DNA from: Mustelus asterias
Taxonomy: Eukaryota
Direction: 5' to 3'
Assembly: GCF_964213995.1 (NCBI RefSeq)
Contig: NW_027590192.1
Coordinates: 124,001-188,000 of the forward strand
DNA: 64,000 nt
Shown piece by piece: positions 1,846-61,545 of the stretch. The position numbers were made by a program, and so were the translations under genes. Numbering within the stretch: the stretch's first letter is position 1; each line of letters begins with the position of its first letter. The notes beneath the pieces were generated by a model. It searched no databases, was not told the DNA's origin, and saw nothing but the letters and a program-made list of their open reading frames with translations.

Positions 1846-2799
1846 ATTATAACTTAACCTTTTTTAAGACAACTTACAAGGACTGATTTTAGAGGCAACA
1901 TCTTTGTTGATTTAAAATCCCAAACACGTTACACCCAAACACAGGCAAAATCTTTGTTCTTTATCTGGGGATAAAATTCTCAGTTATTCCAAATTCCTCC
2001 AGGCTATGCTTAATATTTCCGCATTTAACTTATTCCCAGAAATCCTCAATTATAAACTGAAATAGACCATTGAGTTTCCGGGCAGTCACAGGAATATGGT
2101 CAAGATAGTCTAGTCCCACAATGCTTCACTTTCAATCTGCAGTCCTTCAATTATAACAGAATATGTGGCTGTACGTAGCTGCCTTGGCCATGGTCAACCC
2201 CAACCCCAAGGGTGGCTTCCTGAACTGCTGCAATGCCTCAGGTGTACGTCCACCCACAGTGCTGTTAGGAAGGGACTTCCAGCTACATATTCCAGACTTT
2301 CATGAGACTGTAGGTGCATATATGATTGATATATTCCATTCAACCACATCCAAGGTGAGTTATTCCAATTCCTTTATTGTCCAGGACAATATATTCACAA
2401 TATCTTTAAAACAGAAATTAAAGATTCCCATTTGATTTCAGACAGTAACATATTCTGTTGGTTTGTTCTTTATTGTCAATGTCAGGCTGGGGTTGTTCTC
2501 CTTGGAGCAAAGGAGGTTGAGGGGAGATTTGATAGAGGTGGACAAAATTCTGACAGGTTTAGATAAGGTGGACAAAGAAAAGCTGTTCCTATTAGCTGAT
2601 GGGACAAGGACGAGGGGGGACACAGATTTCTTGTTTTGGGTCAGAGATGCAAGGGGGGGGAGTGGGGGGGAGATGTGAGGAAGAATATTCTGATGCAGCG
2701 AATGGTAATGACCTGAAACTCGCTGTCTACGAGGGTGGAGGAAGTGGAGACAATAAACAATTAAAAAGGAAATTGGATGGGCATTTGGGATGTTCCAAA

Positions 2800-3850
2800 C
2801 AGAACGAAGAACAAAGACAATTACAGCACAGAAACAAGCCCTTTGGCCCTCCAAGCCTGTAGCAACCATGCTGCCCGTCTGAACTAAAACCCCCTACCTT
2901 TCCAGGGACCATATATCTCTATTCCTATGCTATTCATATCTTTGTCAAGACACACCTTAAAAGTCATTATCGTATCTGCTTCCACTGCCTTCCCCGGCAA
3001 CGAGTTCCAGGCACTCACCACCCTCTGTGTAAAAAACCTGCCTTGTACATCTCCTTTAAACCTTGCCCCTCGCACCTTAAACCTATGCCCCTCGTAATTG
3101 ACTTTTCCACCCCCTGAAAAAGCTTCTGATTATCCACTCTGTCCATGCCCCTCATAATCTTGTAGACTTCTATCAGGTCGCCCCCCTCAACCTCCGTCGT
3201 TCCAGTGAGAACAAACCAAGTTTCTCCAACCTCTCCTCATAGCTAATGCCCTCCACACCAGGCAACATCCTGATAAACATTTTCCACACCCTCTCCAAAG
3301 CCTCCACATCCATCTGGTCGTGTGGTCACCAGAATTGAACATGAGATTCCAAGTGCGGTCTAACTAAGGTTCTATAAAGCTGCAACATGACTGACCAATT
3401 TTTAAACTCAGTGCCCTGGCCGATGAAGGCAAGCATGCCGTATGCCTTCTTGATTATCTTACAATAACCTGTGTACCTGTACACCTCGATCCCTCTGCCT
3501 ATGAATACTCTGAAGGGTTCTGCCATTTACTGTATATTTCCCATCTGTATTAGACCTTCCAAAATGCATTACCTCACATTTGTCCGGATTAAACTTCATC
3601 TGCCATCTCTCCGCCCAAGTCTCCAACTGATCTATATCCTGCTGTATCCTCTGCCGTTCCCCATCGCTATTCGCAATTCCACCAACCTTTGTGTCGTCCA
3701 CAAACTTACCAATCAAACCAGTTACATTTTCCTCCAAATCATTTATATATATTACAAACAGCAAAAGTCCCAGCACTGATCGCTGAGGAACGTCACTTGT
3801 CACAGCCCTCCATTCAGAAATGTACCTTTGCACTGCCAACCTCTGTTTTC
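2800..3850 (-). mobile_element. 5'-truncated CR1 LINE inserted downstream of Z1
   Basis: Minus-strand ORFs 3459-3839 (VPQRSVLG, FVDDTK), 3326-3526 and 2884-3075 (FFTQRVVSAWNSLP); CR1 tail near 2800. Confidence 0.92.
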
Positions 3851-4090
3851 TTCCGACTAAATATCTCTCAACTTCCTAACACCCTGTCACTCTGTGATCC
3901 TCGTGAAATTTGAAACCAGGTATTCGCAAAAAGACTCAAAGAGCATCAGCCCACTGGAGGCTGAGATCAGCCAGTCCAGCACAAAGAAACCCTCTGACCC
4001 TTCCCATTGACCAACTGTGAGAATGAACAAAATGCAGTCCTGGATGCAGCTGAGAGCAGAAACAATAACAGCAGAATCCAACCCCTGGAA

Positions 4091-4765
4091 TCACTTGTGA
4101 ACTTGCTGGTGTTTCAGCAGCCGGGATGAAACGCTGAAACCCTTCCCACACTGAGAGCAGGTGAACGGCCTCTCCCCAGTGTGAACTCGCTGGTGTGCCT
4201 GCAGCTCAGATGGCTGAGTGAATCCCTTCCCACACTGAGAGCAAGTGAACGGCCTCTCCCCAGTGTGAATTCGCTGGTGTGCCCGCAGGGTGGATAACTG
4301 AGTGAATCCCTTCCCACACTGAGAGCAGGTGTATGGCCTCTCCCCAGTGTGAACTCGCTGGTGTGTCTGCAGGCTGGATAATTGAGTGAATCCCTTCCCA
4401 CACTGAGAGCAGGTGAACGGCCTCTCTCCAGTGTGAACTCGCTGGTGTGTCAGCAGGCTGGATGACCGTGTGAATCCCTTCCCACACTGAGAGCAGGTGA
4501 ACGGCCTCTCCCCAGAGTGAACTTGCTGGTGTGACTGCAGGTGGGATGACTGAGTGAATCCCTTCCCACATTGAGAGCAGGTGAATGGTCTCTCCCCAGT
4601 GTGAACTCGTTGGTGAATCCGTAAGCTGGAGAACTGATGAAATCCCTTCTCACACCGAGAGCAGATGAACAGCTTCTCCCCAGTGTGGCTGCGCCGATGA
4701 GCTTCCAGCTCTGATGGGGCTCTGTATCCCTTCCCACAGTCCGCACATTTCCATGGTTTCTCCAT
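4091..4765 (-). CDS. Z1: C2H2 zinc-finger protein, 8 fingers, 224 aa
   Basis: Uninterrupted CxxC...HxxxH units with TGERP linkers; ATG in caccATGG context at 4765; likely exon acceptor ttttccAG at 5117-5118. Confidence 0.88.
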
Positions 4766-5252
4766 GGTGCAGGTGTCCTTACCTCTCTCTTGGGTGGACA
4801 ATCAGTTGAAACTTCGTCCACATACACAACAAGATTACAGTCTCTACCCGCTGTGAATGGTGTGATATTTATTCAGGCTGTGTAACTGGTTAAAGCTCTT
4901 TAGTCAGTGCATTGGAACACTCTCACTCAAGTGTGGCAGTGTGTTGATGCATTTTCACTCACACTGACATTTCAAATCTTTTCAAATTTACAGACTGGAC
5001 AATCATTTCTCCTTCTGGATTCAAAGTCCGATGATATTGAAGTCCCAAGGAATATGATTCTGTCGCGTCTAGACGTGACGTTTGAGATTTCAGCCTGTGA
5101 TTCCTCTTTCAATATCCTGGAAAATTCGTTCACAAAAGTCATCAGTGTCAGTACAGGATAGAAATTCAGAACAGACAATTTCTATGGAACATTCTTTCCT
5201 CTCTCATTCCCCAAAAGCTGGAAATCTCCATCCCACACACTCTCTCCCCATT

Positions 5253-5440
5253 CTCAGCAGGTCTGGCAGCATCTGTATGGAGAGAAAAGAACTGATGTTT
5301 CAGAGCTTTGACAAAGGGTTATCTAGACAAGAAACATCAGCTCTTTTCTCTCCTTACAGATGCTGCCAGACCTGCTGAGATTTTCCAGCATTTTCTCTCT
5401 TGGTTTCAGATTCCAGCATCCGCAGTAATTTGCTTTTATA
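5253..5440. mobile_element. Short fold-back repeat (49-bp arms), probably Penelope-derived
   Basis: Arms 5253-5301 and 5331-5379 are reverse complements with 2 mismatches; related sequence at 61700-61795, 60888-60942 and 52020-52088. Confidence 0.7.
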
Positions 5441-6455
5441 AGGCTGCAGATACCTCCTCCCAAGTAACATGCGTGTGCCCAAGACATCACCACTTGTTTC
5501 CCTTATTTCTTTAGCACCCATGGTGCTCTCCGCAGTAAACACAGAGAAGTATTCATTACAAATCTCACCCATCTCCTGTGGCTCCACACACAGATGGCCA
5601 TACTGATTTTTAAGGGGATCTATTCTCTCTCGAGCCACCCTTTTACTCTTAATATAGCAAAAGAACCTCTTGGAATTTTCTTTAATCTTACCTGCCAGAT
5701 CCATATCATACCCTCTTTTTGTCCTCCTGATTTCCCTCTTCAGTATTTTCTTACACTTTTTATAGTCGGAGTGATTCACTTGTCCCCGATTGCCTAAACC
5801 CAATGTATGCTTCCTTCTTTTACCTGACCAGAGCCTCAATGTCCCTTGTCTGCCAGAGATCCCTAAATTTGCCATTCTTTCCCTTCATCTTAACAGGAAT
5901 ATACTGCCCCTGGATTCTTGATATCACACTTTTAAAACCTCCCATTTGCCAGTCATTCCTTTCCTTTCAAACAAACTCACCGAATCGACATCTGCTCGAT
6001 CCTGCCTCATGCCCACAAAAGTGGCCCTGCTCCAGTTTAGGGCCTTGACCTGTGGACCTGTCCTATCTGTTTCCAGAACTATTTTAAAACTATTGGTGCT
6101 CCCAATAGTGCTCCCAATACTGACACTTCAGTCACTTGCTCCACCTCATTTCTTCACTGTCTAATAGAAAGTGAGTCCAGGAATTGATGATGGAAAATGA
6201 GGAGCTGGGAGATGAATTGAACAAGTATTTTGCCTCGGTGTTCACAATAGAGGATACAGTTAAAACTCAGAAACAGCTGGAAATCAGAAAACAGGAGTGT
6301 GGGATGAACTCTGAAAAAGCACAATTCCCAGGGAAGTGGTCCTCAGCAAACTGTTGGAGCTGTGGGCTGGTGAGTCCCCGGGTCCTGCTGGGCTCCATTC
6401 CCGGGTCTGAACAGAGGGAGATAGTTGATGTTGTTCAATTTTCTAAACCGTCTGT
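5440..6455. mobile_element. Old CR1 fragments (minus strand ~5440-6160, plus strand ~6165-6455)
   Basis: ORF 5354-5875 has KIKENSKRFFCYIKSKR and EMGEICNEYFS; the start of ORF 6184 has DELNKYFASVFT. Confidence 0.75.
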
Positions 6456-6464
6456 CGCCATTCC

Positions 6465-6985
6465 CCACACTGCGCATGCTTCAGGTCCCGCCCCTCATTC
6501 ACTCCGATTGGTTGGAGGACCAGCCGCTCCCGCTCGGTCCTCCAGCCCCGCCCCCTCTTCCTATTGGTCCGGAGCCACCGTCAATCAGTCCCCGGGCATT
6601 GTGATGTGGAGCATGCGCAGTGTCATTGCTGTCCTTGGCGCTTGTTTGTCCCGGAGAAGCGGAGTCAGCGTTAGGCGGTGGCTGGGAGGATTTGGAAACA
6701 CTTTGTGGATCCGCAAACCCTTCAGAATCATTGTCAGCTCCCTGGTTTGCAGCTGCGGGGCTTCTCCCTCCCTCCCTCCCGGGAACAGGCCCAGGTTAAC
6801 GGCCCCATCCTGGCTCAGCCACTGGAGGATGGTTCACATCAGAGGATGGGGGAGGGGGACAATAAATAAGAGGTTACACTTTGGCCTCAAATCAATGAGG
6901 ACTCTGATCTCTGGGAAGGAAGGAAACCCTGGGAGGTGGGCGGGGAGGATTCACGAACACCCGCTGGAGGCTCCAACACCCCCAG
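6465..6985. promoter_or_regulatory. CpG-rich promoter cassette copy 1, between divergent Z1 and Z2
   Basis: NRF1-like TGCGCATGC/GCATGCGCA near 6471 and 6611 flank GC boxes (cccgcccc) and ATTGG (CCAAT) boxes; near-identical to 40030-40525 and 52670-53200. Confidence 0.7.
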
Positions 6986-7055
6986 TAAAAAGCTGCAGCT
7001 CCCAGGTTTGCAGCTTTTTCCCGGGAGGGAGTTGGGAAAGTTTTGTGGAGACAAT

Positions 7056-7570: not shown

Positions 7571-8564
7571 TTACATTGCTGATGAGAATTTTCATTTACT
7601 GATTTGGGAATTAATTCTTGGGAATAGTCATTCTGAAAATGACCATTAAAATGGGTTTTAATTTACCCCATAATGCCAGATTTCAGTTTGCATTTCAAAA
7701 TTGAACTGAGAATGTCTGGGAGCAAATGGTAAAATGAGGTTTGAGACACCAGCTGCAATTATTTTCTGTGACTGATGATACCTTTGTGCCTGTGCAGGAG
7801 GTAATTCCCCTGCTGTTGTGGCACAAATAAAATGGAGCTTTTCCAAGGAACAGGCCCATGTTAATGGTCATTGTGGTGTTTCATTGGTGAGCAGAGCATG
7901 AGTGCCCATTGTGGTAACAACAGAGTCAGTGGGGCTGCACGTCCCCTGACTTGGAAGGAAAATAATTGACTCCTTGATTGTACTCTCAATCTGCACATGG
8001 TCTGGAGGACTGAATCCAGCTGGAGGGCGAGGGAGCTGGGCTCAGAGTGGAGATGGGGCAATGAGTTTGATTTCAGCTCAGGGACAAGAGAGAGTGTGTG
8101 GGATGGGGATTACAGCTCAAGATAAATGAGATGGAGAAATGTTTCGTGGAAACTGAAATTGTCTGTTCTGAAGTAGTTTTTTAAAACTCTTTGTGCAGGG
8201 AACTAGAAGAGGAAGATTCACAGACAGGAAACTCAAACTAAACTTCACATCAAAGTCTGACAGCCACTGGATTCATCATGTGATGATTGTGATAAAGCTT
8301 TTGACAGTGGAGGGATAAATCGTTCCCTGTTTTGTCAGTGGAAGAAAATTTCAAAATTCAATGTGACAGAAAAAGAACTGAGACACACCCACACACCCAA
8401 GTGAGAGTGCTCCAGTGAACTGACTGTGGACAGAGCTTTAACCAGTTACATAGCCTGAAAAACATTACACCATTCACAGTGGGGAGAAACCATACACATG
8501 GTCTGTATGTGGATGAGGCTTCAACTAATCATCCATCCTGGGGAGACAGAAGGACAACAGCACC

Positions 8565-8900
8565 ATGGACAAACCGTGGAAATGTGAGGATTGTGATAAA
8601 GGATTCAATTATCCATACTTGCTGGAAAACCATAGACACAGTCACACTGGAGAGAGGCCATTCATCTGTTCTGTGTGTGGGAAAGGATTCACTATCTCAT
8701 CCCACCTGCTGTTACACCAGCAAATTCACACTGAGGAGAGGCCGTTCAGCTGCTCCACCTGTGGAAAGGGGTTCTCATGTTCATCCAACCTCACTGCACA
8801 TCAGCGAGTTCACACTGGGGAGAGATCGTTCACCTGCTCCTTGTGTGGGAAGGATTTTGCTGGGCCATCCAGTCTTTGGTGACAACGGTGAATTCACAAA
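8565..8900 (+). pseudogene. Z2: truncated C2H2 ZNF pseudogene (3 intact fingers plus 1 broken)
   Basis: MDKPWKC start; stops in finger 4 at 8880 and 8889; array ends where a CR1 begins at ~8903. Confidence 0.85.
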
Positions 8901-8902
8901 GG

Positions 8903-9870
8903 ATATATATAATAGATATAAATGATTCGGAGGAAAATGTAACTGGATTGATTTGTACGTTTGCGGACGACACAAAGTTTGGTGGATTTGCGGATCGCGA
9001 TAAGGACCATCAGAGGATACAGCAGGATATAGACCAGTTGGAGACTTGGGTGGAGAGATGGCAGATGGAGTTTAATCTGGACACATGTGAGGTAATGCAT
9101 TTTGGAAGGTCTAATACAGATAGGAAATATATAGTAAATGGCAGAACCCTTAACAATATTGATAGGCAAAGGGATCTGGGTGTACATAGACACAGATCAC
9201 TGAAAGTGGCAATGCAGGTGGAGAAGGTCATCAAGAAGGCATACTGCATGCTTTCCTTCATCGGCTGAGTTTAAAAATTGGCAAGTCATGTTGCAGCTTT
9301 ATAGAACCTTAGTTAGGCCGTACTTGGAATATAGTGTTCAATTCTGGTCGCCACACTACCAGAAGGATGTGGAGGCTTTGGAGAGGGTCCAGAAAAGATT
9401 TACCAGGATGTTGCCTGGTATAGAGGGCATAAGCTATGAGGAGAGGTTGGAGAAACTTGGTTTGTTCTCACTTGAGCGACGGAGGTTGAGGGGAGACCTG
9501 ATCGAAGTCTACAAGATTATGAGAGGCATGGACAGAGTGGATAGTCAGAAGCTTTTTCCTAGGGTGGAAGAGTCAATTACGAGGGGGAATAGGTTTAAGG
9601 TGCGAGGGGTAAAGTTTAAAAGAGATGTACGAGGCAGATGTTTTCCACAGAGAGTGTTGGGTGCCTGGAATTCATTGCCGGGGGAGGTAGTGGAAAGAGA
9701 TACGGTATTGACTTTTAAGGGGTGTCTTGACAAGTACATGAATGAGATGGGAAGAGAAGGATATGGTCCCCAGAAGGGTCGTGGGTTTTAGTTAAGTCAG
9801 GCAGTATGGTCGGTGCAGGCTTGGAGGGCCGAAGGGCCTGTTCCTGTGCTGTAATTTTCTTTGTTCTGAG
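8903..9870 (+). mobile_element. 5'-truncated CR1 LINE
   Basis: FADDTK, QFWSPHYQKD and RLRGDLIEVYK in ORFs 8777-9268 and 9288-9791; CR1 tail. Confidence 0.94.
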
Positions 9871-10409
9871 TACACAGGCCAATTTATCTTTCTAGGGATG
9901 AGTGTGTCTGAGAGGTATGCAACTGGAAAACATTTTCCATTCACCTCCTGCATTGCTGCAGTATAAAGAGATATTGTTCTCACTCTGCCAGCAGGGCTGT
10001 GGGATTAATTGGATAGATCTTAAAGACAGCCCGACTGGGCAGGATGTGCCAAATGGTTTCCATCTGTGATGTATCGTTCCACAAAACAGAATATTCAGCA
10101 CCAGGAGAAAGAAAGTGAAAGAAACCAGTCTCTGTGGGATTTACCCAACCAGTATGAGCACCTTCAGGAGAGCAGAGAGGAGGAATCCAGTGGGAAAAGT
10201 TTTAAAGACACTGGATATTCCCACAGGAGAGCACTGGTTTAAATCAATTTCAGAAATAGAGAATGGCAGCGCACAAATTCCGAGGAATGCATTTTTAAAA
10301 ATTATTTGATCTTAATTGCACAAGATAATTTTCTATTATTGTCTTTGACAATGACGCCGTTAATTCCCAGGTGCCCCTGCGGGTATGAAAGTGTCCTATT
10401 CATTCCACA

Positions 10410-10750
10410 GGAGTCCATTGCGCAGGCGCAATGCTATATCTGGAGCGTGCGCAGTGCCACTTTGCCCGGAGACCTGTGAGTGCGGGAGCGGCTTTTTTCA
10501 ACGGGTGAGTCGGTGGCGCTGCGGGAGAAATGGAGCCGGGAGTCGGGGCAGGGAGGGAGCTATGGCTTCACAAACATCCTCTGTAGGCCGCACGGCCCGA
10601 ATAAGACCCTGCAGGTCCTGGGTTTACAGCTCCAAGGCTTTTATCTCGGGAACAGGCCCCGGTTATCGGCCGCCATCTTGTTTCAGCGGGGAAGGAGAGC
10701 GCATGCGCCGCTGTCGGTGGCGGGTCACAATGGGCGTGGTTTCAGGGGCT
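10410..10750 (+). promoter_or_regulatory. CpG-rich promoter/first-exon module upstream of Z3
   Basis: TGCGCAGGCGCA at ~10419, GCGCATGCGC at ~10699, and YY1-like CCGCCATCTT at ~10670 within the gggaacaggccc..gtta.cggccgccatctt motif shared with other modules. Confidence 0.6.
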
Positions 10751-11405: not shown

Positions 11406-12396
11406 GGCCAACATCTGTGGGTAAAACACTTTCTTTTCTCCCCCTTTCCATTTCTTTTCTCATTCTGGGGAAAATTGGGGACTTGCAGCAACTGAAGGGA
11501 AATGAAGTGAATCCAGTCGGTATTTTCCACACATTGTTAGTCCAGTCAGATAGACATATATCTGTCTGGCAGCCTGCATGGAGATTTCCAGCTCTCTCTG
11601 TCCAGGACAGGAAGCAGTGAGCATGGATCTATCAATCAGCACCTACAGGAGAATTGGGAGGGTGAATATTAGATACAGCAGAGTGAGAATCGAGGGAGAG
11701 TGTGTGGGATGGAGATTTACAGCTCTTGCGTTGTAATATGATGCTGTAGCGATGTTATACATTTCCAGTCATAAAGTCATTACAGCACAGAAGGAATCCA
11801 TTCGGTAACTCGAGTCCATGCTGACTCTCTGTATAACATTCCAGTCCCATTACCACTCAATATCCCATTCTCCTGTAAGTTTATTTCCTTCAAGTGCCCA
11901 TCCACTTTCATTTTTAAATAGAATCCATAGATATGGATGGAGATTTACAGCTTTTTGGGACTGGGAGATGAAAGAATCTTCCATAGAAACTAGAATTGTC
12001 TGTTCTGAATTTCTATCCTGTACTGACACTGATGACTTTTGTAAACTCATTTTACAGGATATTTAAAGAGGAATCACAGACTGAAAACTCAAACGTCACG
12101 TCTCGATCTGACAGAGTCATACTCCTTGGGAGCTGAATATCATCGGACTTTGAATCCAGAAGGAGAAATGATTGTCCGGTCTGTCGATTTGAAATGTCAG
12201 TGTGACTGGAAAAGCATCAACACACTGTCACACTCGAGTGAGTGTGTTCCAATGCACTGACTAAAGAGCTTTAACCAGTTACACAGTCTGAATAAATATC
12301 ACACCATTCACAGCGGGGAGAGACTGTACCTGTGTTGTGTGTGGACGAGGCTTCAACTGATTGGCCACCCAAGAGAGAGGCAAGGACACCTGCACC

Positions 12397-13236
<840 letters not shown>

Positions 13237-14280
13237 TTCCAGGGGTTGGATTCTGCTGTCATTGTTTCTGCTCTCAATTCCATCCAGAACTGCATTTTGT
13301 TCATTCTCACAGTTGGTCAATGGGGAGGGTCGGAGGGTTTCTTTCTGCTGGACTGGTCGGTCTCATGGCTTTGCCTCCAGTGGGCTGATGCTCTTTGAGT
13401 CTTGTTGCGAATACCTGGTTTCAAATTTCACAAGGATCACGGAGTGACTGGGTGTTAGGAAGTTAAGAGATAGTCACTATTTCTGTTTGAAACCCCCCAA
13501 TGCCCATCCAATTTCCTTTGTAATTGTTTATTGTCTCCACTTCCTCCACCCTCGTAGGCAGCGAGTTCCAGGTCATTATCATTCACTGCATCAAAATATT
13601 CTTCCTCACATCCCCCCACTGCATCTCTGATCCAAAACCTTAAATCTGTGTCCCCCTCGTCCTTGTTCCATCAGCGAATGGGAACAGCTTTTCTTTGTCC
13701 ACCTTATCTAAACCTGTCAGAATCTTGTCCACCTCTATCAAATCTCCCCTCAACCTCCTTGCTCCAAGGGGAACAACCCCAGCCTGACATTGACAATAAA
13801 GAACAAACTAACAGCATATGTTAATACCTGAAATCAAATGGGAATGTTTAATTTCTGTTTTAAAATTATTGTGAATATATTGTCCTGGAGAACAAAGAAA
13901 TTGGAATAGCTCACTGTGGGTGAGGTTGAATGGAATATATCAATGTGGAATCCTGGTTCATTCCAGTGAAAGTCTGGAATGTGTCGATGGGATGAATAAG
14001 TTGATCACTTTCTCTGGGAGATATTTACATCCTTGTCCATTGTTCGAGGGGGTTCAGGACAACCTGGGACTAAAAGACTAATATATCAGAATAGGTTAAT
14101 TTAGAGTGAATATATTCAAGAAGAATCACAAAGTACCTGGAGTTACAAATGTACTGTTTGCATAGAAATACATATAACCATTGTTAGTGAATTTAAACAT
14201 GTATTTTTGATAACATATATTCTGTATTAAAATCATACACCTTGGCTAATGACACTCTAAGGCATGATGGTATATAGCTA

Positions 14281-14709: not shown

Positions 14710-17700
14710 GCTTTGGCTCACAGGGCTTCGGCGAAGGCGAGGAAGGTTGTTTGTTTTTCTTCTGTTACACCCCCTTTTTTGTTTTATCTCCCAAAAACTA
14801 AAAAGGACATGGCTGGTATGAGTGGGAGGCCAGTATACTGCATTCGGTGTGGGATGTGGGAGTTCCTGGAGACAACTTGCCTCCCGGAAGTCCATATCTG
14901 TGCCAGATGCGTGGAACTGCAACTCCTGAAGGATCGTGTAAGGGAGCTGGAGCTGAGGCTCGATGAACTCAGTTTAGTTAGGGCAAATGAGAGATTAATA
15001 GATAAAAGTTATAGTCAGGTAGTGACACCAGGGTCTCGGAAGGAAGACACGTGGGTCACAGTTAGGAGGGGTAATAGAAGGGTGATGTGCCAGAAAGTAC
15101 CCCAGTGGCAGTCTCCCATAAAAGAAAGGGATGGCAACAGATGGGAGAAGGGAAGGGTGTGAGCAGTCTGTGGAGGGATCCCCTGTGGTTGTCCCCCTCC
15201 AAAATAGGTATATTGTTTTGGATTCTGTGGAGGGGGATGACCCTCCAGGGGTAAGCCACGAGGACCAGATCGCCTCCACGGAGACAGGCTCAAGGGAGGG
15301 AAGGAAGCGATTTAGGAGAGCGATAGTTGTGGGGGACGCAATGGTTAGAGGCACGGACAGGCGGTTCTGTGGGAGTGAACGAGAATCCAGGATGGTAGTC
15401 TGCCTCCCTGGTGCCGGGGTACTGGATGTCTCCGAGAGGGTAGGAAGCATATTTTAAAAGGAAGGTAGTCAAACGGATGTGATTATACACATTGGTGAAA
15501 ATGATGTCGGTAGGAAGAGCAGGGGGGTCATACGAGAGAAATTCAGGGAGTTGGGTGCTAGGCTAAAAAGTAAGGCCTCCAGGGTAGCAATCTCTGAACT
15601 GCTCCCGGTGTCTAGTGCAAGTGAGGCTCGGAACAGGGAGATTGTACAGTTGAACGCGTGGCTAAAGGACTGGTGCAAGAGGGAGGGTTTTTAATTCATA
15701 GATAACTGGGAAATCTTCAAGTCAGGATGGCAACTGTACAGAAAGGATGGGTTACACCTTAACTGGAAGGGAGCAAATATCCTGGCTGGGAGTTTTGCGA
15801 GAGTGTTTCGGCAGGATTTAAACTAGTGTGGCAGCGGGGTGGGGAACAAAACAGTAGGTTAGTAAATACTGAGGCTGGGGTTGAGCTGGGGGCCAGGGCA
15901 AGGCTAGCTAAGAAGAGGAGCACTCTGGAGGAGGATGACCTGAGTGGGCCTGGAGGTCTGGAGTGCATCTGCTTCAATGCAAGGAGCGTAACGGGTAAAA
16001 CAGACGAACTTAGGGCCTTAATGCTTATGCGGAATTTGGATGTGGTTGCGGTGACGGAAACTTGGTTAAAAGAAGGACAGGACTGGCAGCTGAATATTCC
16101 AGGGTATAAGTGTTTTAGGCGAGACAGAGGAGGGGCTAAAAAAGGTGGGGGAGTAGCGATATTAGTTAAGGAGCATGTTACCGCGGTGCAGAGGGTAGAC
16201 AACTTGGAGGGGTCATGTACTGAGTCGCTGTGGGTGGAACTCAGAAACAGGAAGAGTGCAGTCACTATGCTGGGGGTGTACTACAGACCACCTCTCGGCC
16301 CACGGGAAGTGGAGGAAAGGATATGTCAGGAGATTCTGGATAGGTGCAGAAAAAATAGGGTTGTTGTAGTGGGGGACTTTAATTTCCCTGGCACAGACTG
16401 GAAAGTGCTTAGAGCTGGGGGTCCGGACGGGGAGGAATTTGTAAAATGCGTACTGGAAGGTTCTTTGGAACAGTATGTAGATAGCCCGACTGGAGAGGGG
16501 GCTATACTGGACCTAGTTCTGGGAAATGAGCCAGGTCAGGTTGTCAAAGTTTCGGTAGGGGAACATGTGGCAAATAGTGACCACAACTCTGTTAACTTTA
16601 GGATAGTAATGGACAAGGATGAGTGCTGTCCTACGGGCAGGGTGCTAAATTGGGGGAAGGCTAACTATAGCCGGATTAGGCAGGAATTGGTGGATGTTGA
16701 TTGGGAGAGGATGTTCAAGGGTAAGTCCGCGTCTGGCATGTGGGAGTCTTTTAAGGAACTATTGATAAGACTGCAGGATAGGCATATGCCTGTAAAAAGG
16801 AAAGATAGGAAAGGTAGGATTCGAGAGCCGTGGACAACCAGGGAAATTGAGGATCTGATTAAAATGAAAAGGGAGGCGTACGTTAAGTCCAGGCAACTGA
16901 AAACAGATGGAGCTCTGGAGGAATACAGAGAGAGTAGGAAAGAACTCAAACGGGGAGTTAGAAGGGCAAAAAGAGGTCACGAGATGTTCTTGGCAGGCAT
17001 GATTAAGGAGAATCCTAAGGCATTCTATTCATACGTTAGGAACAAAAGAGTTGTCAGGGAGAAAATCGGACCTCTCAGGGACAAAGGAGGGGAATTATGC
17101 TTAGAACCCAAGGGAATAGGGGAGATCCTAAATGAATACTTTGCATCGGTATTCACGAAGGAAAGGGGCGTGTTAACCGGGAGTGTCTCAGAGGGAGGTG
17201 TTGACCCGTTAGAGAAAATCTCCATTACAAGAGAGGAAGTGTTAGGTTTTTTAGGGAACATTAAAACTGACAAAGCCCCAGGGCCTGATGGCATCTATCC
17301 TCGACTGCTCAGGGAGACGAGAGATGAAATTGCTGGGCCTCTGACGGAAATCTTTGTCGCTTCTTTGGACACGGGTGAGGTCCCTGAGGATTGGAGGATA
17401 GTGAATGTGGTCCCGTTGTTTAAGAAGGGTAGCAGGGATAACCCAGGAAATTATAGGCCGGTGAGCTTGACGTCCGTGGTAGGGAAGTTGTTGGAGAGGA
17501 TTCTTAGAGACAGGATGTATGTGGATTTAGAACGGAACAATCTCATTAGTGACAGACAGCATGGTTTTGTAAGAGGGAGGTCGTGCCTTACAAATTTGGT
17601 GGAATTTTTTGAGGAAGTGACAAAAACGGTTGATGAAGGAAGGGCCGTGGATGTCGTCTATATGGATTTCAGGAAGGCATTTGACAAAGTCCCACATGGC

Positions 17701-18822
17701 AGGTTGGTTAAGAAGGTTAAGGCTCATGGGATACAAGGAGAAGTGGCTAGATGGGTGGAGAACTGGCTTGGCCATAGGAGACAGAGGGTAGTGGTCGAAG
17801 GGTCTTTTTCCGGCTGGAGGTCTGTGACCAGTGGTGTTCCACAGGGCTCTGTACTGGGACCTCTGCTATTTGTGATATATATAAATGATTTGGAAGAAGG
17901 TGTAACTGGTGTAATCAGCAAGTTTGCGGATGACACGAAGATGGCTGGACTTGCGGATAGCGAAGAGCATTGTCGGGCAATACAGCAGGATATAGATAGG
18001 CTGGAAAATTGGGCGGACAGGTGGCAGATGGAGTTTAATCCGGATAAATGCGAAGTGATGCATTTTGGAAGAAATAATGTAGGGAGGAGTTATACAATAA
18101 ATGGCAGAGTCATCAGGAGTATAGAAACACAGAGGGACCTAGGTGTGCAAGTCCACAAATCCTTGAAGGTGGCAACACAGGTGGAGAAGGTGGTGAAGAA
18201 GGCATATGGTATGCTTGCCTTTATAGGACGAGGTATAGAGTATAAAAGCTGGAGTCTGATGATGCAGCTGTATAGAACGCTGGTTAGGCCACATTTGGAG
18301 TACTGCGTCCAGTTCTGGTCGCCGCACTACCAGAAGGACGTGGAGGCGTTAGAGAGAGTGCAGAGAAGGTTTACCAGGATATTGCCTGGTATGGAGGGTC
18401 TTAGCTATGAGGAGAGATTGGGTAAACTGGGGTTGTTCTCCCTTGAAAGACGTAGAATGAGGGGAGATCTAATAGAGGTGTACAAGATTATGAAGGGGAT
18501 AGATAGGGTGAATGGTGGGAAGCTTTTTCCCAGATCAGAAGTGACGTTCACGAGGGGTCACGGGCTCAAGGTGAGAGGGGCGAAGTATAACTCAGATATT
18601 AGTGGGATGTTTTTTACACAGAGGGTGGTGGGGGCCTGGAATGCTCTGCCAAGTAGGGTGGTGGAGGCAGGCACACTGACATCGTTTAAGACTTACCTGG
18701 ATAGTCACATGAGCAGCCTGGGAATGGAGGGATACAAACGATTGGTCTTGTTGGACCAAGGAGTGGCACAGGCTTGGAGGGCCGAAGGGCCTGTTTCCTG
18801 TGCTGTACTGTTCTTTGTTCTT
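14710..18822 (+). mobile_element. Full-length young CR1 LINE
   Basis: 5'UTR, ORF1, ORF2 and (ttctttg)n tail; candidate target-site duplication tgtgagg at 14703-14709 and 18823-18829. Confidence 0.96.
14809..15826 (+). pseudogene. CR1 ORF1 (Cys-pair zinc knuckle, coiled coil, SGNH/GDSL esterase), disrupted
   Basis: CIRC..CARC, LELRLDEL, then VGDAMVRG, CLPGA, HIGENDV and DGLHLN; broken into several ORFs at ~15160, ~15455 and ~15692. Confidence 0.88.
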
Positions 18823-20061: not shown

Positions 20062-20297
20062 AAAACACTTTCTTTTCTCCCCCTTTTCATTTCTTTTCTC
20101 ATTTTGCACTTCAATTTTTAACTTCTGGGTCATCACTCGCTGCCTCAGTAAAGATTCTCCTCACATTCTTTATGTATCTGTAACCAGGTAATAAAGTGTA
20201 TTACACACACCATCAGTCTGCTCATTTATATCCAAATGTAAAACTGTAACGTGACTGTCAGCTTGAAGATTTTCAGCTCTCTGTGCCCACAACAGGA

Positions 20298-34639: not shown

Positions 34640-34920
34640 GGATTGTCAATGGCGGGCTTTATACCCAGCATTCCCCGCGGTGCTGAAAGTCCCCTTTCTA
34701 CACAGCAGGAGAGTAGTGCGCATGTCCAATGCTCATCCAGTTGGAGCATGCGCAGTATGAGTGATGTCTCCTGAGGCAAAGACGCTTCTTTGGTTAACAG
34801 GCAGTCGGTAAGGATGCGGAAACCCGGAGTGAGTAACGGAGGCGATTCTGGTTGGGAAGAGTTTGTAAACACCGGGTGAATTCTCTAACCCCCTATAACG
34901 AACCTGAAGGTGCCGCGTTT
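34640..34920. promoter_or_regulatory. CpG-rich module upstream of Z5
   Basis: Paired GCGCATG / GCATGCGCA sites at 34717-34756, CCAAT, and similarity to 53240-53400. Confidence 0.55.
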
Positions 34921-35282
34921 GCATTTTTCATGATACATCTGTCTTTACTTGTGCCTTGAAAACAGTGACTCCTCATCCCACACACTCTTCCCAGGCTAAC
35001 TATCTGTCCCATATTTAACAGGATTGATCTGTATTTGAGTCCACTGTCCCAGGCTTTCTCATTGCATACACCCCATCCCTCACTGTTTGCATGTTCCCAC
35101 AACTCTGGCAGACGCCACTTCCACACAGCCTGACCTCAGTTCTGGCAAGACCCATCCACCATTCATTTGGACTCCAGGGCAGGCTGTACCATAATTTTCA
35201 CCATGAGAGTTGATCAGCCTGCTAAATCCATCACACCATCTTCACAATTCCTTTCCTTACTTGCAGATTCCACCCCCTCCCT

Positions 35283-35959: not shown

Positions 35960-36545
35960 TGATTTATTGTCTCCCTCCCCCATCCTCTGAAGTGAACCAT
36001 CCTCCAGTGGCTGAGCCAGGATGGGGCCGTTAACCTGGGCCTGTTCCCGGGAGGGAGGGAGGGAGAAGCCCCGCAGCTGCAAACCAGGGAGCTGACAATG
36101 ATTCTGAAGGGTTTGTTCCAGCTCACAATGCCCGGGGGCTGATTGACGGCAGCTCGGACCAATAGGAAGAGGGGGCGGGGCCGGATGACCGAGCGGGAGA
36201 CGCTGGTCCTCCAACCAATCAGATTCAATCGGGATCTGGACTGAGCCTGGAACTCCCTCTGTCTGCGCACGCGCTCCGCCGCAAGCTGTGCCCGTCTCAA
36301 GATGGCGGCCGTTCACCTGGGCCTGTCTGAGGGTAAAGCCCGAGCAGCTGTCATCCGTTTAAATACCGAATCCGAGCCTCGTATGAGGACTTGGGGCCTA
36401 TACAGCATGTCTTATGAAGCCTCCAAACCAACCCACCCACCGGCTCCGTCTCTCGTTCCTGATTTATCCGGCGGTATCTCCCGGGCTGATAATTCCAACA
36501 ACCGCCTCAATCCTCAACTGTGAGCGGCAATGCGCATGCTCCAGA
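35960..36545 (-). promoter_or_regulatory. Two tandem leftward promoter modules (internally deleted cassette copy 35960-36240; second module 36260-36545)
   Basis: Reverse-complement match to the cassette; AAGATGGCGGC at 36299; TGCGCATGC at 36531. Confidence 0.65.
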
Positions 36546-36565
36546 TCAGAATGGGGGTCCGCACC

Positions 36566-39949: not shown

Positions 39950-40570
39950 GGGAGATCCGGGCTCAGCCCCGCCTCTCATTCACTCTGATTGGTTGGGGGA
40001 CCAGCCGCTCCCGCTCTGTCCTCCAGCCCCGCCCCTCATTCACTCCGATTGGTTGGAGGATCAGCCACTCCCGCTCGGTCCTCCAGCACCGCCCCCTCTT
40101 CCTATTGGCCCGGAACTGCCGTCAATCAGTCCCCGGGCATTGTGATGTGGAGCATGCGCAGTGTCATTGCTGTCCTTGGCGCTTGTTTGTCCCGGAGAAG
40201 CGGAGTCAGCGTTAGGCGGTGGCTGGGAGGATTTGGAAACACTTTGTGGATCCGCAAACCCTTCAGAATCATTGTCAGCTCCCTGGTTTGCAGCTGCGGG
40301 GCTTCTCCCTCCCTCCCTCCCGGGAACAGGCCCAGGTTAGCGGCCCCATCCTGGCTCAGCCACTGGAGGATGGTTCACATCAGAGGATGGGGGAGGGGGA
40401 CAATAAATAAGAGGTTACACTTTGGCCTCAAATCAATGAGGACTCTGATCTCTGGGAAGGAAGGAAACCCTGGGAGGTGGGCGGGGAGGATTCACAAACA
40501 CCCGCTGGAGGCCCCAACACCCTCAATAAGACCCAATGGTTTTATTGTCAGTCTGCAGACAGCAGCTGGA
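39950..40570 (+). promoter_or_regulatory. Promoter cassette copy 2, upstream of Z6 and Z7
   Basis: About 2.5 copies of the 60-bp unit, GCATGCGCA at 40152; only about 3 differences from 6601-6980. Confidence 0.7.
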
Positions 40571-40583
40571 GAACTGAACCCAG

Positions 40584-41203
40584 TGAGAAGTCTCACAACA
40601 CCAGGTTAAAGTCCAACAGGTTTATTTGGTAGCACAAGCCACTAGCTTTCGGAGCGCTGCTCCTTCATCAGGTGAGTGGGAATTCTGTTCACAAACAGGG
40701 CACATGAAGACAACAATCCCATCCAGGCCCTATCCACATATTTACCTTGATACCAAGTGGCAATTTATCCTGGCCAATCCGTCTAACCGGCTTCGTGACG
40801 TGGCAGAACTTCCTTAGCTGTGGTTATCTTGGCATTCTAAACCACAGTGAGTCGTGCCTGACCGGTGGCCCCGCAGGGTATCAGGCAGCCACAACACTGG
40901 CAGATTTGGTACATGCTGGAAGACGACTGGCCGATAACTGCCAAACACACTTCTGGGCCTTCAAACCCATTAATTCAAAGAAACTATTGTACGTGACAAG
41001 TGTATCCGACTTGTCCCGGGGATAGTTGGTGATGTGCATTTTTATGCCCTGTTTGTGAACAGAACTCCCACTCATCTGATGAAGGGGCAGCGCTCTGAAA
41101 GTTAGTGGCTTGTGCTACCAAATAAACCTGTTGGACTTTAACCTGGTGTTGTGAGACTTCTTACTATGCTTACCCCAGTCCAACGCCGGCATCTCCACAT
41201 CAT
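40584..41203. mobile_element. Non-autonomous Penelope-derived element: inverted pLTRs around ~330 bp of cargo, 13-bp target-site duplication
   Basis: pLTR minus 40587-40705 and plus 41040-41203; gaactgaacccag at 40571-40583 and 41204-41216; hammerhead cores at 40633-40676 (-) and 41071-41114 (+). Confidence 0.85.
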
Positions 41204-41763
41204 GAACTGAACCCAGACACAGGAGAGGGAGGGAGAAAACTGGGAGTGCAGGAAAGAAATGGCGGAGATGGTTTGGATTTCAGCCTTGGGAGGATGGAGA
41301 GTGTGTGGGATGGGGATTTACAGATTTGGGGGAATGAGAGAGGAAGAAATATTCCAGAGAATTAGAATTGTCTGTTCAAAATTTCTATCCTGGACTGGCA
41401 GTGATTAATTTTGTAAATTCCTTTTACAGGTGAGGCGTGGAAACATCACATCAAAATCAGACAGAGTCTCAATTTATCAGGGTCTGAATATCCTCAGACT
41501 TTGAATGTGGAAGGAGAAATGAGGTTGTTTGTTCTGCCTGGAGAAGATTTCAAACATCAGTGTGACTGGAAACGCACCAAGATACACACACAACCCAAGT
41601 GAGAGTGTTCCAGTGAATTGACTGTGGAAAGAGCTTTATCCAGTTACGCAGCCTGAAAAAACATCACACCATTCACAGCAAGGAAAAACTGTGCACGTGT
41701 TCTGTGTGTGGGCGAGTCTTCAACTGATTGTGCAACCTGGAGAGACACAAGGATACCAGCACC

Positions 41764-42687
41764 ATGGAGAAACCATGGAAATGTGGGGACTGTGGGAAAG
41801 GATTCAGTTACCCTTCCCTGCTGGAAAACCATCGGCGCAGTCACACTGGGGAGAGACCGTTCACCTGTTCTGTCTGTGGGGAGGGATTCATTCAGTCATC
41901 TGGCCTTTGGTCTCACCAGAGAATTCACACTGAGGAAAAGCCATTCACCTGCACCTCCTGTGGGAAGAGGTTCAGGCATTCTTCAGCACTCACTGTGCAC
42001 CAACGCAGTCACACCGGGGAGAGACCATTCATCTGCTCCGTGTGTGGGAAGGGATTCACTCAGTCATTCCACCTGCTGTCACACCAGTGAGTTCATACTG
42101 GGGAGAGGCCGTTCACCTGCTCCGACTGTGGGAAGGGATTCACTGGGTCATCCCACTTACTGTTACACCAGCGAGTTCACATTGAGGAGAAGCCATTCAG
42201 CTGCACTGACTGTGGATGGAGTTTCAGACAGGCATCCTCCCTCATTGCACACCAGCGAATTCACACTGGGGAGAGACCGTTTACTTGCTTTGTGTGTGGA
42301 AAGGGATTCACAGCTTTACCCACCCTGCTGAGACACCAGAAAATTCACACTGAAGAGAAGCCATTCAGCTGCACTGACTGTGGAAAGAATTTCAGGCAGT
42401 CATCCAACCTCACTGCTCACCGACGCACTCACACTGCAGAAAGAGCATTCACATGCTCCGTGTGTGGGAAGGGATTCAATCGGTCATCCGACCTCTCTGC
42501 TCACCAGCGAGTTCACACAGGGGAGAGGCCATTCACTTGCTCCGTGTGTGGGAAAGGATTCGCAAAGTTTTTCAACCTGCTGGCTCACCAACGCACTCAC
42601 ACTAAGAGGCCATTCAACTGCTCTGTGTGTGGGAAGGGATTCACTCAGTCACAATGACTCCTGAGACTTCAGCAAGTTCATAAGTGA
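41764..42687 (+). pseudogene. Z6: 11-finger ZNF with nonsense codons
   Basis: Frame conserved, but TGA at 42088 (CGA>TGA in HQRVH) and at 42655. Confidence 0.85.
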
Positions 42688-49669: not shown

Positions 49670-49960
49670 ATTTCCTTCCTATGGCGGCGCTCTTACCCAG
49701 CATTCGCAGCGAGAGAGAATGTGCCGTATTGTCACAATGGGAGCCGCTTGCGCAGGCGTAGTACCTGATTCTGAGTGGAGCATGCGCTGTGCGGATTCGG
49801 ACTGGCCCATGCGCAGTGTGGGTGCTGGAGCTGCAGGGAGGCGGGGGAGTGCAGAGGCTTCAGAAACAGCCAGTGGAGGAGGCCTCAAAACCCAGAATAA
49901 GAAACCCCCCCGGGCCCGAGTTTGCACCGACCCGGGGGGTAATTGCAGCAGCTCTACAAT
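49670..49960 (+). promoter_or_regulatory. CpG-rich promoter module upstream of Z8
   Basis: ATGGCGGC at 49681; TGCGCAGGCG, GAGCATGCGC and CATGCGCA motifs. Confidence 0.6.
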
Positions 49961-52088: not shown

Positions 52089-52610
52089 TGGGAGGCACGG
52101 TAGCACAGTGGTTAGCACTGCTGCTTCACAGCGCCAGGGACCCAGATTTGATTCCCGGCTTGGGTCACTGTCTGTGTGGAGTTTGCACATTCTCCCCGTG
52201 TCTGTGTGGGTTTCCTCCGGGTGCTCCGGTTTCCTCCCACATTCTGAAAGACGTGCTGGTTAGGCGCATTGACCCGAACAGCTTGTCTGGACTTGCAGAA
52301 TCTCACTGGCTGTCCTGTCTGGAGACAATACACATCTCTTTAACCTGTGCTTAATGCTCCCTCCACTCACATTGTTTGTACCTTTAAGACTTGATTATCT
52401 GTAAAGACTGCATTCCAATCATTATTCTGTAAATTGAGTTTGTGTCTCTGTGTGCCCTGTTTGTGAGCATTTCTCCACTCCACCTGACGAAGGGGCAGCG
52501 CTCCAAAAGCTAGTGGCATTTGCGACCAAATAAACCTGTTGGACTTTAACCTGGTGTTGTTAAACTTCTTACTGTCTTTATCCCAGTCAACGCCGGCATC
52601 TCCACATCAT
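52089..52610 (+). mobile_element. V-SINE head fused to a Penelope pLTR
   Basis: SINE 52089-52280; pLTR 52280-52610 matches 22680-23006; hammerhead GAAA mutated to AAAA at 52505. Confidence 0.88.
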
Positions 52611-53560
52611 GGATTCAGTTCTCCAGCTCCTGTCTGCAGACTGACAATAAAACCAATGGCTCTTATTGGGGGTGTTGGGGCCTCCAGCGGGTATTTGTGA
52701 ATCCTCCCCGCCCACCTCCCAGGGTTTCCTTCCTCCCCAGAGATCAGAGTCCTCATTGATTTGAGGCCAAAGTGTAACCTCTTATTTATTGTCCCCCTCC
52801 CCCATCCTCTGATGTGAACCATCCTCCAGTGGCTGAGCCAGGATGGGGCCGTTAACCTGGGCCTGTTCCCGGGAGGGAGGGAGAAGCCCCGCAGCTGCAA
52901 ACCAGGGAGCTGACAATGATTCTGAAGGGTTTGCGGATCCACAAAGTGTTTCCAATTCCTCCCAGCCACCGCCTAACGCTGACTCCGCTTCTCCGGGACA
53001 AACAAGCGCCAAGGCCAGCAATGACACAGCGCATGCTCCACATCACAATGCCCGGGGATTGGTTGACGGCAGCTCCGGACCAATAGGAAGAGGGGGCGGG
53101 GCTGGTCCCCAACCAATCGGAGTGAATGAGGGGCGGGACTGGAGGACCGAGCGGGAGCGGCTGGTCCTCCAACCAATCGCACTGAATGAGGGCCCGGACC
53201 AATAGGAAGAGTTCCCTATTCTTTGCATGGGAGAGATGCACATGCGCAGTAAGCAACGGCGTTCGCCGCGTGGGTGAAAGCAACTGGAGAGAAGTTCCTC
53301 TGTCTCATCAGCAGCCGGTAAGGATGCAGAAACATAGAGGGAGCAATGGAAGCGGCGGATGGACGTAGAGGGTTTCTAAATATCTGGTGAAGGCCTCAAA
53401 CCTCGAATATGAGCCCGTAGGTCCCGTGTTTGCAGTTTCGGGTCTTTGTCCCGAGACGAAGCTCAGGTTAACGGCCGCCATCTTGATCCAGCGGAGAGCA
53501 GAGCGCACGCGTTGGTGTCTTGGTGACGCAACCGTGACTGGGCGGGTCTTTGTGCTTCTG
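52611..53560. promoter_or_regulatory. Bidirectional module: cassette copy 3 (minus) plus a rightward module upstream of Z9
   Basis: 52611-53200 is the reverse complement of the 39950-40580 cassette; CATGCGCA at 53241; CCGCCATCTT at 53475. Confidence 0.68.
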
Positions 53561-60884: not shown

Positions 60885-60944
60885 GGAATCTCTCTCCACA
60901 GTTGCTGTCAGACTTGCTGAGGTTTTGCAGCATTTTCTGTTTTG

Positions 60945-61154: not shown

Positions 61155-61545
61155 GTCACAATGCCCGGCTGATTGACGGTAGCGCGGACCAATGGGAAGA
61201 GAAGGGGCTGGAGGACCAGCCTTTCCCGCTCGGACCTCCAACCAATCACAGTGAATGAGGGGCGGAGCTGGAGCATGCGCATTGTGGGTAATGGGGACGG
61301 AGACGGGCTGTTTTTTCGGCTCGGAGATAGATTAGCGGTGATTGACGGTACGGAGGGGGCGAGGGATCTCGCGGGTGGACGGAAACGCTGCGTAAGCAGG
61401 TTGTGTCAGCCACGAACCTCGGTAAAGAGCTTCACGGACCCAGTTTGTACCGAGCGGTACCGCAGCTCCTCATGGTCGGGCCGTGTTCATGGCCGCCATC
61501 TTTATTGGGGGCAATATGCAACAAGGCGCATGCGCAGGCCGGCAT
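61155..61545. promoter_or_regulatory. Promoter module upstream of Z10
   Basis: Cassette core in minus orientation (CCAAT, GGGGCGG), GAGCATGCGCA at 61271, CCGCCATCTT at 61493, GCGCATGCGCA at 61526. Confidence 0.65.

What the first reader, a model, noticed from the sequence alone, without database searches (positions are those of the whole stretch)
6465..6985. Near-identical ~500-bp promoter cassette shared by otherwise diverged genes
Seen: 6601-6980 and 40142-40521 differ at about 3 positions; further copies lie at 52670-53200 (-) and 35960-36240 (-, internally deleted). The paralogous sequence downstream (7985-8120 vs 41204-41340) and the Z2/Z6 arrays are clearly more diverged. The cassette also has AATAAA about 250 bp after the NRF1 site. 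Inference: it is homogenised by gene conversion, or it moves independently as a portable promoter that could co-regulate the family.
Basis: partly seen in the sequence, partly recalled or inferred. Interest (0 to 1): 0.7.

Follow-up and report, generated by a model that had tools for sequence, protein, structure and literature searches.

The report
Gene-converted zinc-finger gene promoter copies
In a cluster of zinc-finger genes, probably from a shark-like fish, the same short promoter stretch is almost identical in front of genes that otherwise diverged long ago, most likely because DNA repair recently copied it between neighbours, which is a known process and not a new mobile element.

Summary
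In detail: 6601-6980 and 40142-40521 differ at 3 of 380 positions, and copies C (53200-52663) and D (36229-35962, deleted) exist. The cassette is not a portable element. It is one arm of the cluster's native, often head-to-head promoter (CCAAT, GC-box and NRF1-like motifs); six other arms in the window are 46-58% alike to it. I found no target-site duplication, terminal repeat, LTR end or poly-A tail. The A/B core differs by 1.3%, while the homologous intron, exon 2 and finger array differ by 23-27%, also without CpG sites. B/C (1.8% core, 8-11% flank) and D (1.3% versus 11%) show the same mosaic. Repeated non-allelic gene conversion fits best (0.7); copy-in during break repair is the main rival. 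Family-wide co-regulation is doubtful: the shared arm lacks the family's donor-like motif, has an altered YY1-like core and fewer CpGs; Z2 and Z6 stop after three fingers; C has no downstream exon for 19 kb; D lost its NRF1-like site. The AATAAA is unremarkable (about 1 per kb here). Genome-wide copy number and expression could not be tested. New instance of a known process; interest 0.3.

The parts
6448..6486 (-). Start of the opposite (leftward) promoter arm with an NRF1-like site at 6471, facing Z1; cut off by LINE-like sequence further left
   Evidence: Homologous to 61306-61270, the start of the arm that faces Z10; next minus-strand acceptor is Z1, 1361 bp away; LINE label by weak match to the 16.7-18.8 kb LINE
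6487..6988 (+). Copy A of the cassette: 60-bp GC-box/CCAAT/inverted-repeat unit, second CCAAT unit, NRF1-like site 6608-6621, probable exon 1/intron 1 start, altered YY1-like core 6801-6811, AATAAA 6861, start of a second arm module
   Evidence: motif names recalled; promoter role inferred from position 1587 bp before the Z2 acceptor
6929..7026 (+). Second, diverged copy of the arm module; runs in register through the end of the near-identity, so the cassette's right end is not an element end
   Evidence: One continuous arm-profile hit, E 1.4e-12; alignment to 6672-6800
7965..8199 (+). Z2 intron part homologous to the sequence directly after copies B and C (B/C lack about 1 kb that A holds)
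   Evidence: 26.9% and 23.8% divergent from 40530-40583 and 41205-41429
8200..8882 (+). Z2 exon 2; ORF from Met 8565 is 105 aa with 3 fingers, then stops and a LINE fragment
   Evidence: LINE match at 8910-9867
35962..36229 (-). Copy D: 5' part 11% divergent from A, deletion removing the NRF1-like site, 3' part 1.3% divergent, ending at a repeat insertion at the AATAAA
   Evidence: 2164 bp before the acceptor of the intact 11-finger Z5, link uncertain
39964..40529 (+). Copy B with 2.2 60-bp units, 1276 bp before the Z6 acceptor
40530..41204 (+). B's intron flank (40530-40583) and a composite repeat insertion (Penelope-like, label recalled) flanked by a 12-bp duplication; the left part is shared with C
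41430..42654 (+). Z6 exon 2; ORF from Met 41764 is 108 aa with 3 complete fingers, in-frame stop 42088-42090, 6 further fingers after it
52663..53200 (-). Copy C, head-to-head with the native arm at 53243-53487; NRF1-like site mutated; no same-strand ZNF acceptor for 19 kb
52443..52662 (-). C's flank shared with B (intron 7.8% divergent, repeat 10.8% divergent)
61156..61306 (-). Old remnant of the same bidirectional promoter core (80.6% to 6448-6604), facing an exon-2 remnant at 56891-56709
10440..10682 (+). Native paralogous promoter arm before Z3, with donor-like motif at 10505 and intact YY1-like core
36297..36544 (-). Native paralogous arm directly upstream of D, next to 4.6 copies of the 60-bp unit (36565-36838)
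53243..53487 (+). Native paralogous arm before Z9
61268..61505 (+). Native paralogous arm before Z10
34742..34926 (+). Truncated native paralogous arm
49806..49934 (+). Short native paralogous arm before Z8

Best explanation
The cassette is one arm of the native CpG-rich, often bidirectional promoter of this C2H2-ZNF cluster (promoter, probable first exon and start of intron 1). Its copies came from old gene or segment duplications (A vs B about 23% apart; B, C, D about 10% apart). Since then a core of about 400 bp has been overwritten between copies by non-allelic gene conversion, more than once: an older, longer tract left the 5' units 6-13% apart, and recent tracts left the core 0.3-2% apart. 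Tracts stop where homology breaks (60-bp unit number change, the 1-kb indel, D's deletion and repeat insertion). Shown: the mosaic identity pattern, the arm family, the missing element ends. Inferred: conversion as the mechanism, the layering, promoter function, and the direction (A as recipient is simplest, but a donor outside the window is possible).
For: A/B core 5 differences in 392 vs intron 44 in 185, exon 2 78 in 331, fingers 65 in 288 (Fisher p 1.6e-18 to 3e-23); longest identical run 221 vs at most 75 in 10,000 permutations. Same without CpG sites, 1.1% vs 21-23%. The half of the core after the GT at 6796 is still only 2.2% divergent, far below the coding fingers. B/C core 1.9% vs shared flank 8.7% non-CpG (p 6e-4); D 3' 1.4% vs 5' 8.8% (p 0.008). 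Z2 and Z6 are sister paralogs in the exon-2 tree (support 61) and share an intron segment that Z1, Z3, Z4 and Z10 lack, so the cassette sits at homologous positions. The control runs the other way: Z1/Z3/Z4 are 88-91% alike in exon 2, yet the Z3 and Z4 upstream regions share only patches of 39-60 bp. Conversion of 5' regions between paralogs is described for SIGLEC11/16 (PMC5701461, passages), and short conversions among poly-ZF paralogs in PMC2604467 (passages).
Against: Left of 6487/40028 A and B are not alignable (13 and 17 of 50), and the right end coincides with a 1-kb indel, so neither tract end is bracketed directly by diverged A/B homology. Segment limits for the Fisher tests were chosen after seeing the data. 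That B and C share one repeat insertion is inferred: C's copy is nearest to B's left copy (10 differences vs 13-18), but B's copy is nearer to other copies (5-6). Z2+Z6 support is only 61. C and D sit in 5' contexts unlike A's, which copy-in would also explain. No ortholog or second haplotype was available.
Confidence: 0.7

Rival explanations
1. Recent short duplications: the arm was copied into new places by templated break repair or by unequal exchange, creating chimeric genes, without overwriting an older homologous arm.
For: C abuts the 53243 arm at a junction with an 18-bp repeat of the cassette's own CCAAT unit (53194-53211); D lies in tandem behind another arm and has a deletion between two short TGGA words; A's left flank is not shared with B.
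Against: In A and B homologous sequence resumes in register after the cassette. B and C share older flanks at 8-11% while their core is 1.8%, and D is a mosaic inside the copy; one recent copy event per locus gives even divergence.
Confidence: 0.17
2. Assembly or polishing artefact that homogenised or duplicated the sequence.
For: Single unnamed sequence, no reads available; copies are short enough for reads to cross-map.
Against: Each copy has private substitutions or indels (site list); the window holds no N; cross-mapping needs near-identity to exist already; false haplotype duplication would include flanks.
Confidence: 0.05
3. A mobile element (solo LTR, MITE, retrocopy) that carries a promoter and a poly-A signal and inserts in front of ZNF genes: the first reader's portable promoter.
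For: LTR-like order of promoter motifs, then AATAAA, then 120 bp; four copies in both orientations within 47 kb; as young as the youngest LINE pair in the window (1.1% vs 1.8% non-CpG, p 0.5).
Against: Longest word shared near both ends is 5-6 bp and not at the junctions; longest inverted word 6-7 bp; no TG...CA ends, no A-run; ragged ends; homologous to six native arms at 46-58%; AATAAA occurs about once per kb.
Confidence: 0.04
4. Strong purifying selection on an old promoter.
For: Promoter motifs and CpG-island-like composition (o/e 0.61 vs 0.40 for the window).
Against: Would need about 95% constraint over 390 bp, more than the finger-coding DNA shows (22.6% divergent); other arms are only 46-64% alike; near-identity holds in C and D, whose NRF1-like site is mutated or deleted.
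Confidence: 0.03

Closest known systems
Non-allelic gene conversion of 5' regions between paralogs, e.g. SIGLEC16P to SIGLEC11 (PMC5701461, passages seen)
   Same: High-identity block (97-99%) covering upstream and 5' sequence next to lower-identity homologous sequence; repeated events; a non-functional copy can be the donor.
   Different: Here the block is about 0.4-0.5 kb, non-coding only, the background divergence is much higher (23% vs about 7-12%), and four copies take part.
Gene conversion among clustered poly-zinc-finger paralogs (PMC2604467, passages seen)
   Same: Short conversion tracts among tandem C2H2-ZNF paralogs.
   Different: That work tested the gene alignments used for selection analysis; here the finger array is unconverted and the promoter arm is homogenised.
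Vertebrate bidirectional CpG-island promoters enriched in NF-Y, SP1, NRF1, YY1 motifs (PMC10887517, passages seen)
   Same: Head-to-head layout with CCAAT, GC-box, NRF1-like and YY1-like motifs (motif identities recalled).
   Different: The converted arm has an altered YY1-like core, no family donor-like motif and lower CpG o/e; activity untested.
Usual promoter evolution of duplicates (PMC10100218; mouse KZFP clusters, PMC5363842; passages)
   Same: Most arms in this window follow the rule: promoters diverge faster than gene bodies.
   Different: The cassette is the exception. PMC10100218 names zinc-finger genes among old paralogs with relatively conserved promoters and names conversion as a possible cause for recent duplicates.

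Membership tests
Non-allelic gene conversion tract | Block of identity far above that of homologous flanks of the same pair | tested here: met
   1.3% vs 23-27%; permutation p 1e-4; holds without CpG
Non-allelic gene conversion tract | Tract lies at homologous positions in pre-existing paralogs | tested here: inconclusive
   Met on the 3' side for A, B, C; on the 5' side A and B are not alignable, although A matches the 61.3 kb paralog and B shares a short lead-in with D
Non-allelic gene conversion tract | Tract tree groups paralogs within a species against orthologs | not testable with these tools
Non-allelic gene conversion tract | Non-reciprocal transfer with an identified donor | not testable with these tools
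   Site patterns are star-like; no outgroup
Solo LTR | TG...CA ends and 4-6 bp TSD at fixed ends | tested here: not met
DNA transposon / MITE | Terminal inverted repeats and TSD | tested here: not met
   longest inverted word 6-7 bp within 40 bp of the ends of A, B, C (D not tested for TIR)
Retrocopy / SINE / 3' transduction | Starts at or after the TSS, ends in a poly-A or simple-repeat tail after the poly-A signal | tested here: not met
   Copies include upstream CCAAT/GC units; A, B and C run 120 bp past AATAAA; no run of 6 A at any of 4 ends
Helitron | 5' TC, 3' hairpin plus terminal CTRR | tested here: inconclusive
   The CTRR flagged for A, B, C is an inner CTGG over 20 nt before the end, not terminal; hairpin not tested; ends are ragged
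Bidirectional CpG-island promoter | CpG-rich, CCAAT/GC/NRF1/YY1-type motifs, head-to-head genes | tested here: met
   Composition; motifs (consensus recalled); Z1(-)/Z2(+) flank copy A
Bidirectional CpG-island promoter | Transcription start and open chromatin | not testable with these tools
   No CAGE, RNA-seq or ATAC data
Known structured RNA | Rfam match at gathering score | tested here: not met
   0 matches in the 64 kb window

The most novel reading that the evidence does not exclude
These ZNF promoters are meiotic break hotspots (promoter-directed, as in vertebrates without a working PRDM9; cartilaginous-fish PRDM9 is reported as partial or weakly predicted, PMC5519329). Repair from paralogous arms would keep swapping promoter arms among old ZNF paralogs while their finger arrays diverge freely. 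A decayed, donor-less arm would then be spreading through the cluster by conversion and switching off or re-wiring the genes it reaches, which would make promoter conversion a route of ZNF gene death and regulatory shuffling.
Probability: 0.15. Interest if true: 0.6.

Novelty: new member of a known kind. Interest (0 to 1): 0.3.

Why it matters
If true, it is a clean case of conversion limited to a promoter arm between paralogs that are 23% apart, in a ZNF cluster where promoters otherwise turn over faster than genes. It shows that regulatory and DNA-binding parts of ZNF genes can have separate histories, and it warns that promoter identity cannot date ZNF duplications. It would matter more if the pattern is genome-wide and tracks recombination hotspots. 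As it stands it is one local example of a known process, around genes that look damaged.

Tried and rejected
Rfam scan of the window: 0 matches at gathering score. A hammerhead-like core that I thought I recognised in the repeat at 41045-41204 was not confirmed; the only match was a 24-nt snoRNA piece far below its cut-off. My first idea that the GT at 6796 is the conserved family splice donor was dropped: the better-scoring donor-like motif in other arms lies about 55-75 bp after the NRF1-like site and is absent from the cassette (crude score from recalled frequencies). Long stop-to-stop frames over the cassette copies have no Pfam match (0 families for 4 of 4), so no coding role. The four-fold count used a wrong frame for Z6 and was redone. 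The protein atlas gave no answer for Z5. TSD, TIR, LTR-end and poly-A tests were negative. No fold or complex prediction was run, as the feature is non-coding. Prokaryotic, phage and plasmid collections were not searched, as the window is animal DNA; viral and metagenome contigs were closed.

Full report
Setting. The window is animal DNA holding ten C2H2 finger arrays, numbered Z1-Z10 from the left (Pfam zf-C2H2 on Z5), mixed with LINE and SINE remains. A 1025-aa frame at 15763-18840 has endonuclease and reverse transcriptase domains. Among 65 hits, its best one named as a eukaryote is from the catshark Scyliorhinus torazame (62% identity over 62% of the query); the top hit overall is labelled as a bacterium and most are unnamed. 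A cartilaginous fish is therefore likely but only weakly shown; the repeat families also looked shark-like to me (recalled).

Observation. 6601-6980 and 40142-40521 differ at 3 of 380 positions. The full ungapped match is 6487-6988 vs 40028-40529, 12 of 502, with 7 differences in the first 91 bp and 1 in 377 between 6578 and 6954. Copy C is 53200-52663 (-) and copy D 36229-35962 (-) with a deletion of about 105 bp that removes the NRF1-like site. Among 150 non-finger self-matches of 100 bp or more, only tandem arrays and one LINE pair (97.6% over 2166 bp) are as alike as the cassette copies. A shuffled window gives at best 13 bp. AATAAA is at 6861 but occurs 66 times on both strands of the window.

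What the cassette is. It begins with a 60-bp unit holding a GC box, a CCAAT box and an 8-bp inverted repeat, found in 1 to 4.6 copies at several sites. An NRF1-like site and about 200 bp follow, ending near a YY1-like word (motif names recalled; these motifs are listed as enriched in bidirectional promoters in PMC10887517, passages). A profile built from six arms gave 12 hits in the window: those six, copies B, C and D or their parts, second modules at 6929, 40470 and 52722 included, the arm at 49819, and one weak hit at 7836. The six other arms are 46-58% identical to copy A in a multiple alignment; all scored above their best of 200 shuffles in local alignment, the arms at 49.8 and 61.3 kb only narrowly. 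Of 12 arms or arm starts listed, 10 lie 0.7-4.3 kb before a same-strand exon-2 acceptor; the arm at 34749 (6.7 kb) and copy C (19 kb) do not. Copy A has a second NRF1-like site at 6471 facing Z1, and 6448-6604 matches 61306-61156 at 80.6% in the same head-to-head layout. So the cassette is one arm of the cluster's own promoter. That it is a promoter is inferred; no expression data were available.

Identity pattern. A vs B: 5' units 6.4%, core 1.3% (5 of 392), intron just past the cassette 26.9%, rest of intron 23.8%, exon 2 5' part 23.6%, fingers 22.6%; 13 of 26 four-fold sites differ. The longest identical run in 1358 aligned columns is 221, against at most 75 in 10,000 permutations. Without CpG sites the contrast is 1.1% vs 21-23%. 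B and C share the loss of about 1 kb that A holds and a repeat at the same site; their core differs by 1.8% but this flank by 7.8% and 10.8%. D is 10.9% from A before its deletion and 1.3% after it. Segment limits were set after seeing the data, so the Fisher values are optimistic; the permutation result depends less on them. In the exon-2 tree Z2 and Z6 are sisters (support 61) at 73% identity and share an intron segment; Z5, downstream of D, is 64-69% alike to them. The control runs the other way: Z1, Z3 and Z4 are 88-91% alike in exon 2 but the Z3 and Z4 upstream regions share only patches of 39-60 bp, as reported for mouse KZFP clusters (PMC5363842, passages) and mammalian duplicates (PMC10100218, passages).

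Ends. No TSD: the longest word shared near both ends is 5-6 bp and not at the junctions; the longest inverted word is 6-7 bp. No TG...CA ends and no A-run. The right end of the A/B match falls inside a second arm module that continues in A to 7026, at the 1-kb indel; the left end is a change in 60-bp unit number. D ends at a repeat insertion that sits at the homologous site in the arm at 10.8 kb as well, which may mean D is an older arm overwritten up to that insertion (inferred).

Mechanism. Best: old duplicated arms repeatedly overwritten by non-allelic gene conversion, with tracts stopping at breaks in homology (0.7). The latest events are about as young as the youngest LINE pair (1.1% vs 1.8%, p 0.5). 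A's five private changes lie at the two ends of the core (6576-6577, 6955-6985), which fits A as a recipient, but a donor outside the window is possible. Against this reading: left of the cassette A and B do not align (13 and 17 of 50), so tract ends are not bracketed by diverged homology; the shared B/C insertion is inferred; no ortholog was available. Copy-in by break repair remains the main rival (0.17), above all for C and D. Artefact (0.05), mobile element (0.04) and selection (0.03) fit poorly.

Function. The shared arm looks decayed. A donor-like motif is seen 55-75 bp after the NRF1-like site in the arms at 10.5, 34.8, 53.3 and, weakly, 61.3 kb; it is absent in A, B, C and in the arm at 36.5 kb. 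The YY1-like core intact in 4 of 4 full-length other arms is altered in all four copies. CpG o/e is 0.54 against 0.80-1.18 in 5 of 6 other arms; the sixth is 0.43. Z2 and Z6 stop after 3 fingers (105 and 108 aa), while Z5 is intact with 11. C's NRF1-like site is mutated and D's is deleted. Family-wide co-regulation by this cassette is thus unlikely, though A and B may still be active.

Comparison and novelty. Conversion of upstream and 5' sequence between paralogs, even from a non-functional donor, is described for SIGLEC11/16 (PMC5701461, passages), and short conversions among poly-ZF paralogs in PMC2604467 (passages). Eight searches of the held library (listings only) showed no title or abstract start on promoter-limited conversion in a shark ZNF cluster; PMC10547256 has no occurrence of 'shark' or 'gene conversion'. 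The library lacks most subscription papers and I read no supplements, so this is weak evidence of novelty. The bolder reading, promoter-directed hotspots spreading a decayed arm, rests on partial or weakly predicted PRDM9 domains in two cartilaginous fishes (PMC5519329, passages) and is untested (0.15). Verdict: real, explained by a known process, a new member of a known kind, interest 0.3. Genome-wide copy number, orthologs and expression stayed unchecked.

Noticed in passing
window 6514, 19900, 36183, 36597-36818, 39995, 40055, 53141, 61210: An 8-bp inverted repeat next to a CCAAT box occurs 11 times, all in promoter-like regions, with arms kept while the 11-14 nt spacer changes; possibly a site for a dimeric factor.
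   Followed up: partly
window 36565-36838: Promoter minisatellite: 4.6 copies of the 60-bp GC-box/CCAAT unit at 95% identity; it may be the left half of copy B's bidirectional promoter, split by about 3 kb rich in repeats.
   Followed up: partly
window 16659-18824 and 46455-44290: Inverted pair of LINE copies 97.6% identical over 2166 bp; the first lies in an open 1025-aa endonuclease/RT frame, so a recently active family.
   Followed up: partly
window 22841-23007, 39699-39777, 40582-40712, 41045-41204, 52278-52616, 60548-60890: Repeat family (Penelope-like, label recalled) with a hammerhead-like core by eye; Rfam did not confirm it.
   Followed up: partly
window 56891-56709 (-): Exon-2 5' remnant with acceptor and no finger array, facing the decayed arm at 61156: a dead ZNF gene head-to-head with Z10.
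   Followed up: partly
window 2105-5256, 11935-13990, 23640-26590: Z1, Z3 and Z4 are whole-gene duplicates (85-91%) including 3' flanks, in both orientations, with unlike or lost promoters.
   Followed up: partly
window 11408-11467 and 20047-20106: A 53-60 bp patch 93-94% alike just after a donor-like site upstream of Z3 and Z4, amid otherwise unalignable sequence.
   Followed up: no
window 10350-10440, 34620-34740, 49670-49800: A second upstream promoter type with a ZNF143-like word (recalled) and paired NRF1-like sites in place of the 60-bp unit; upstream modules and arms appear shuffled.
   Followed up: no
window 47207-47977: 38-bp tandem repeat, 20.3 copies, 99% matches.
   Followed up: no
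window 8200-8564, 41430-41764, 62279-62600: The 5' part of exon 2 holds decayed finger-like sequence ahead of the conserved Met of the M-x-K-P-W-K-C start, suggesting an ancestral N-terminal loss in this subfamily.
   Followed up: no
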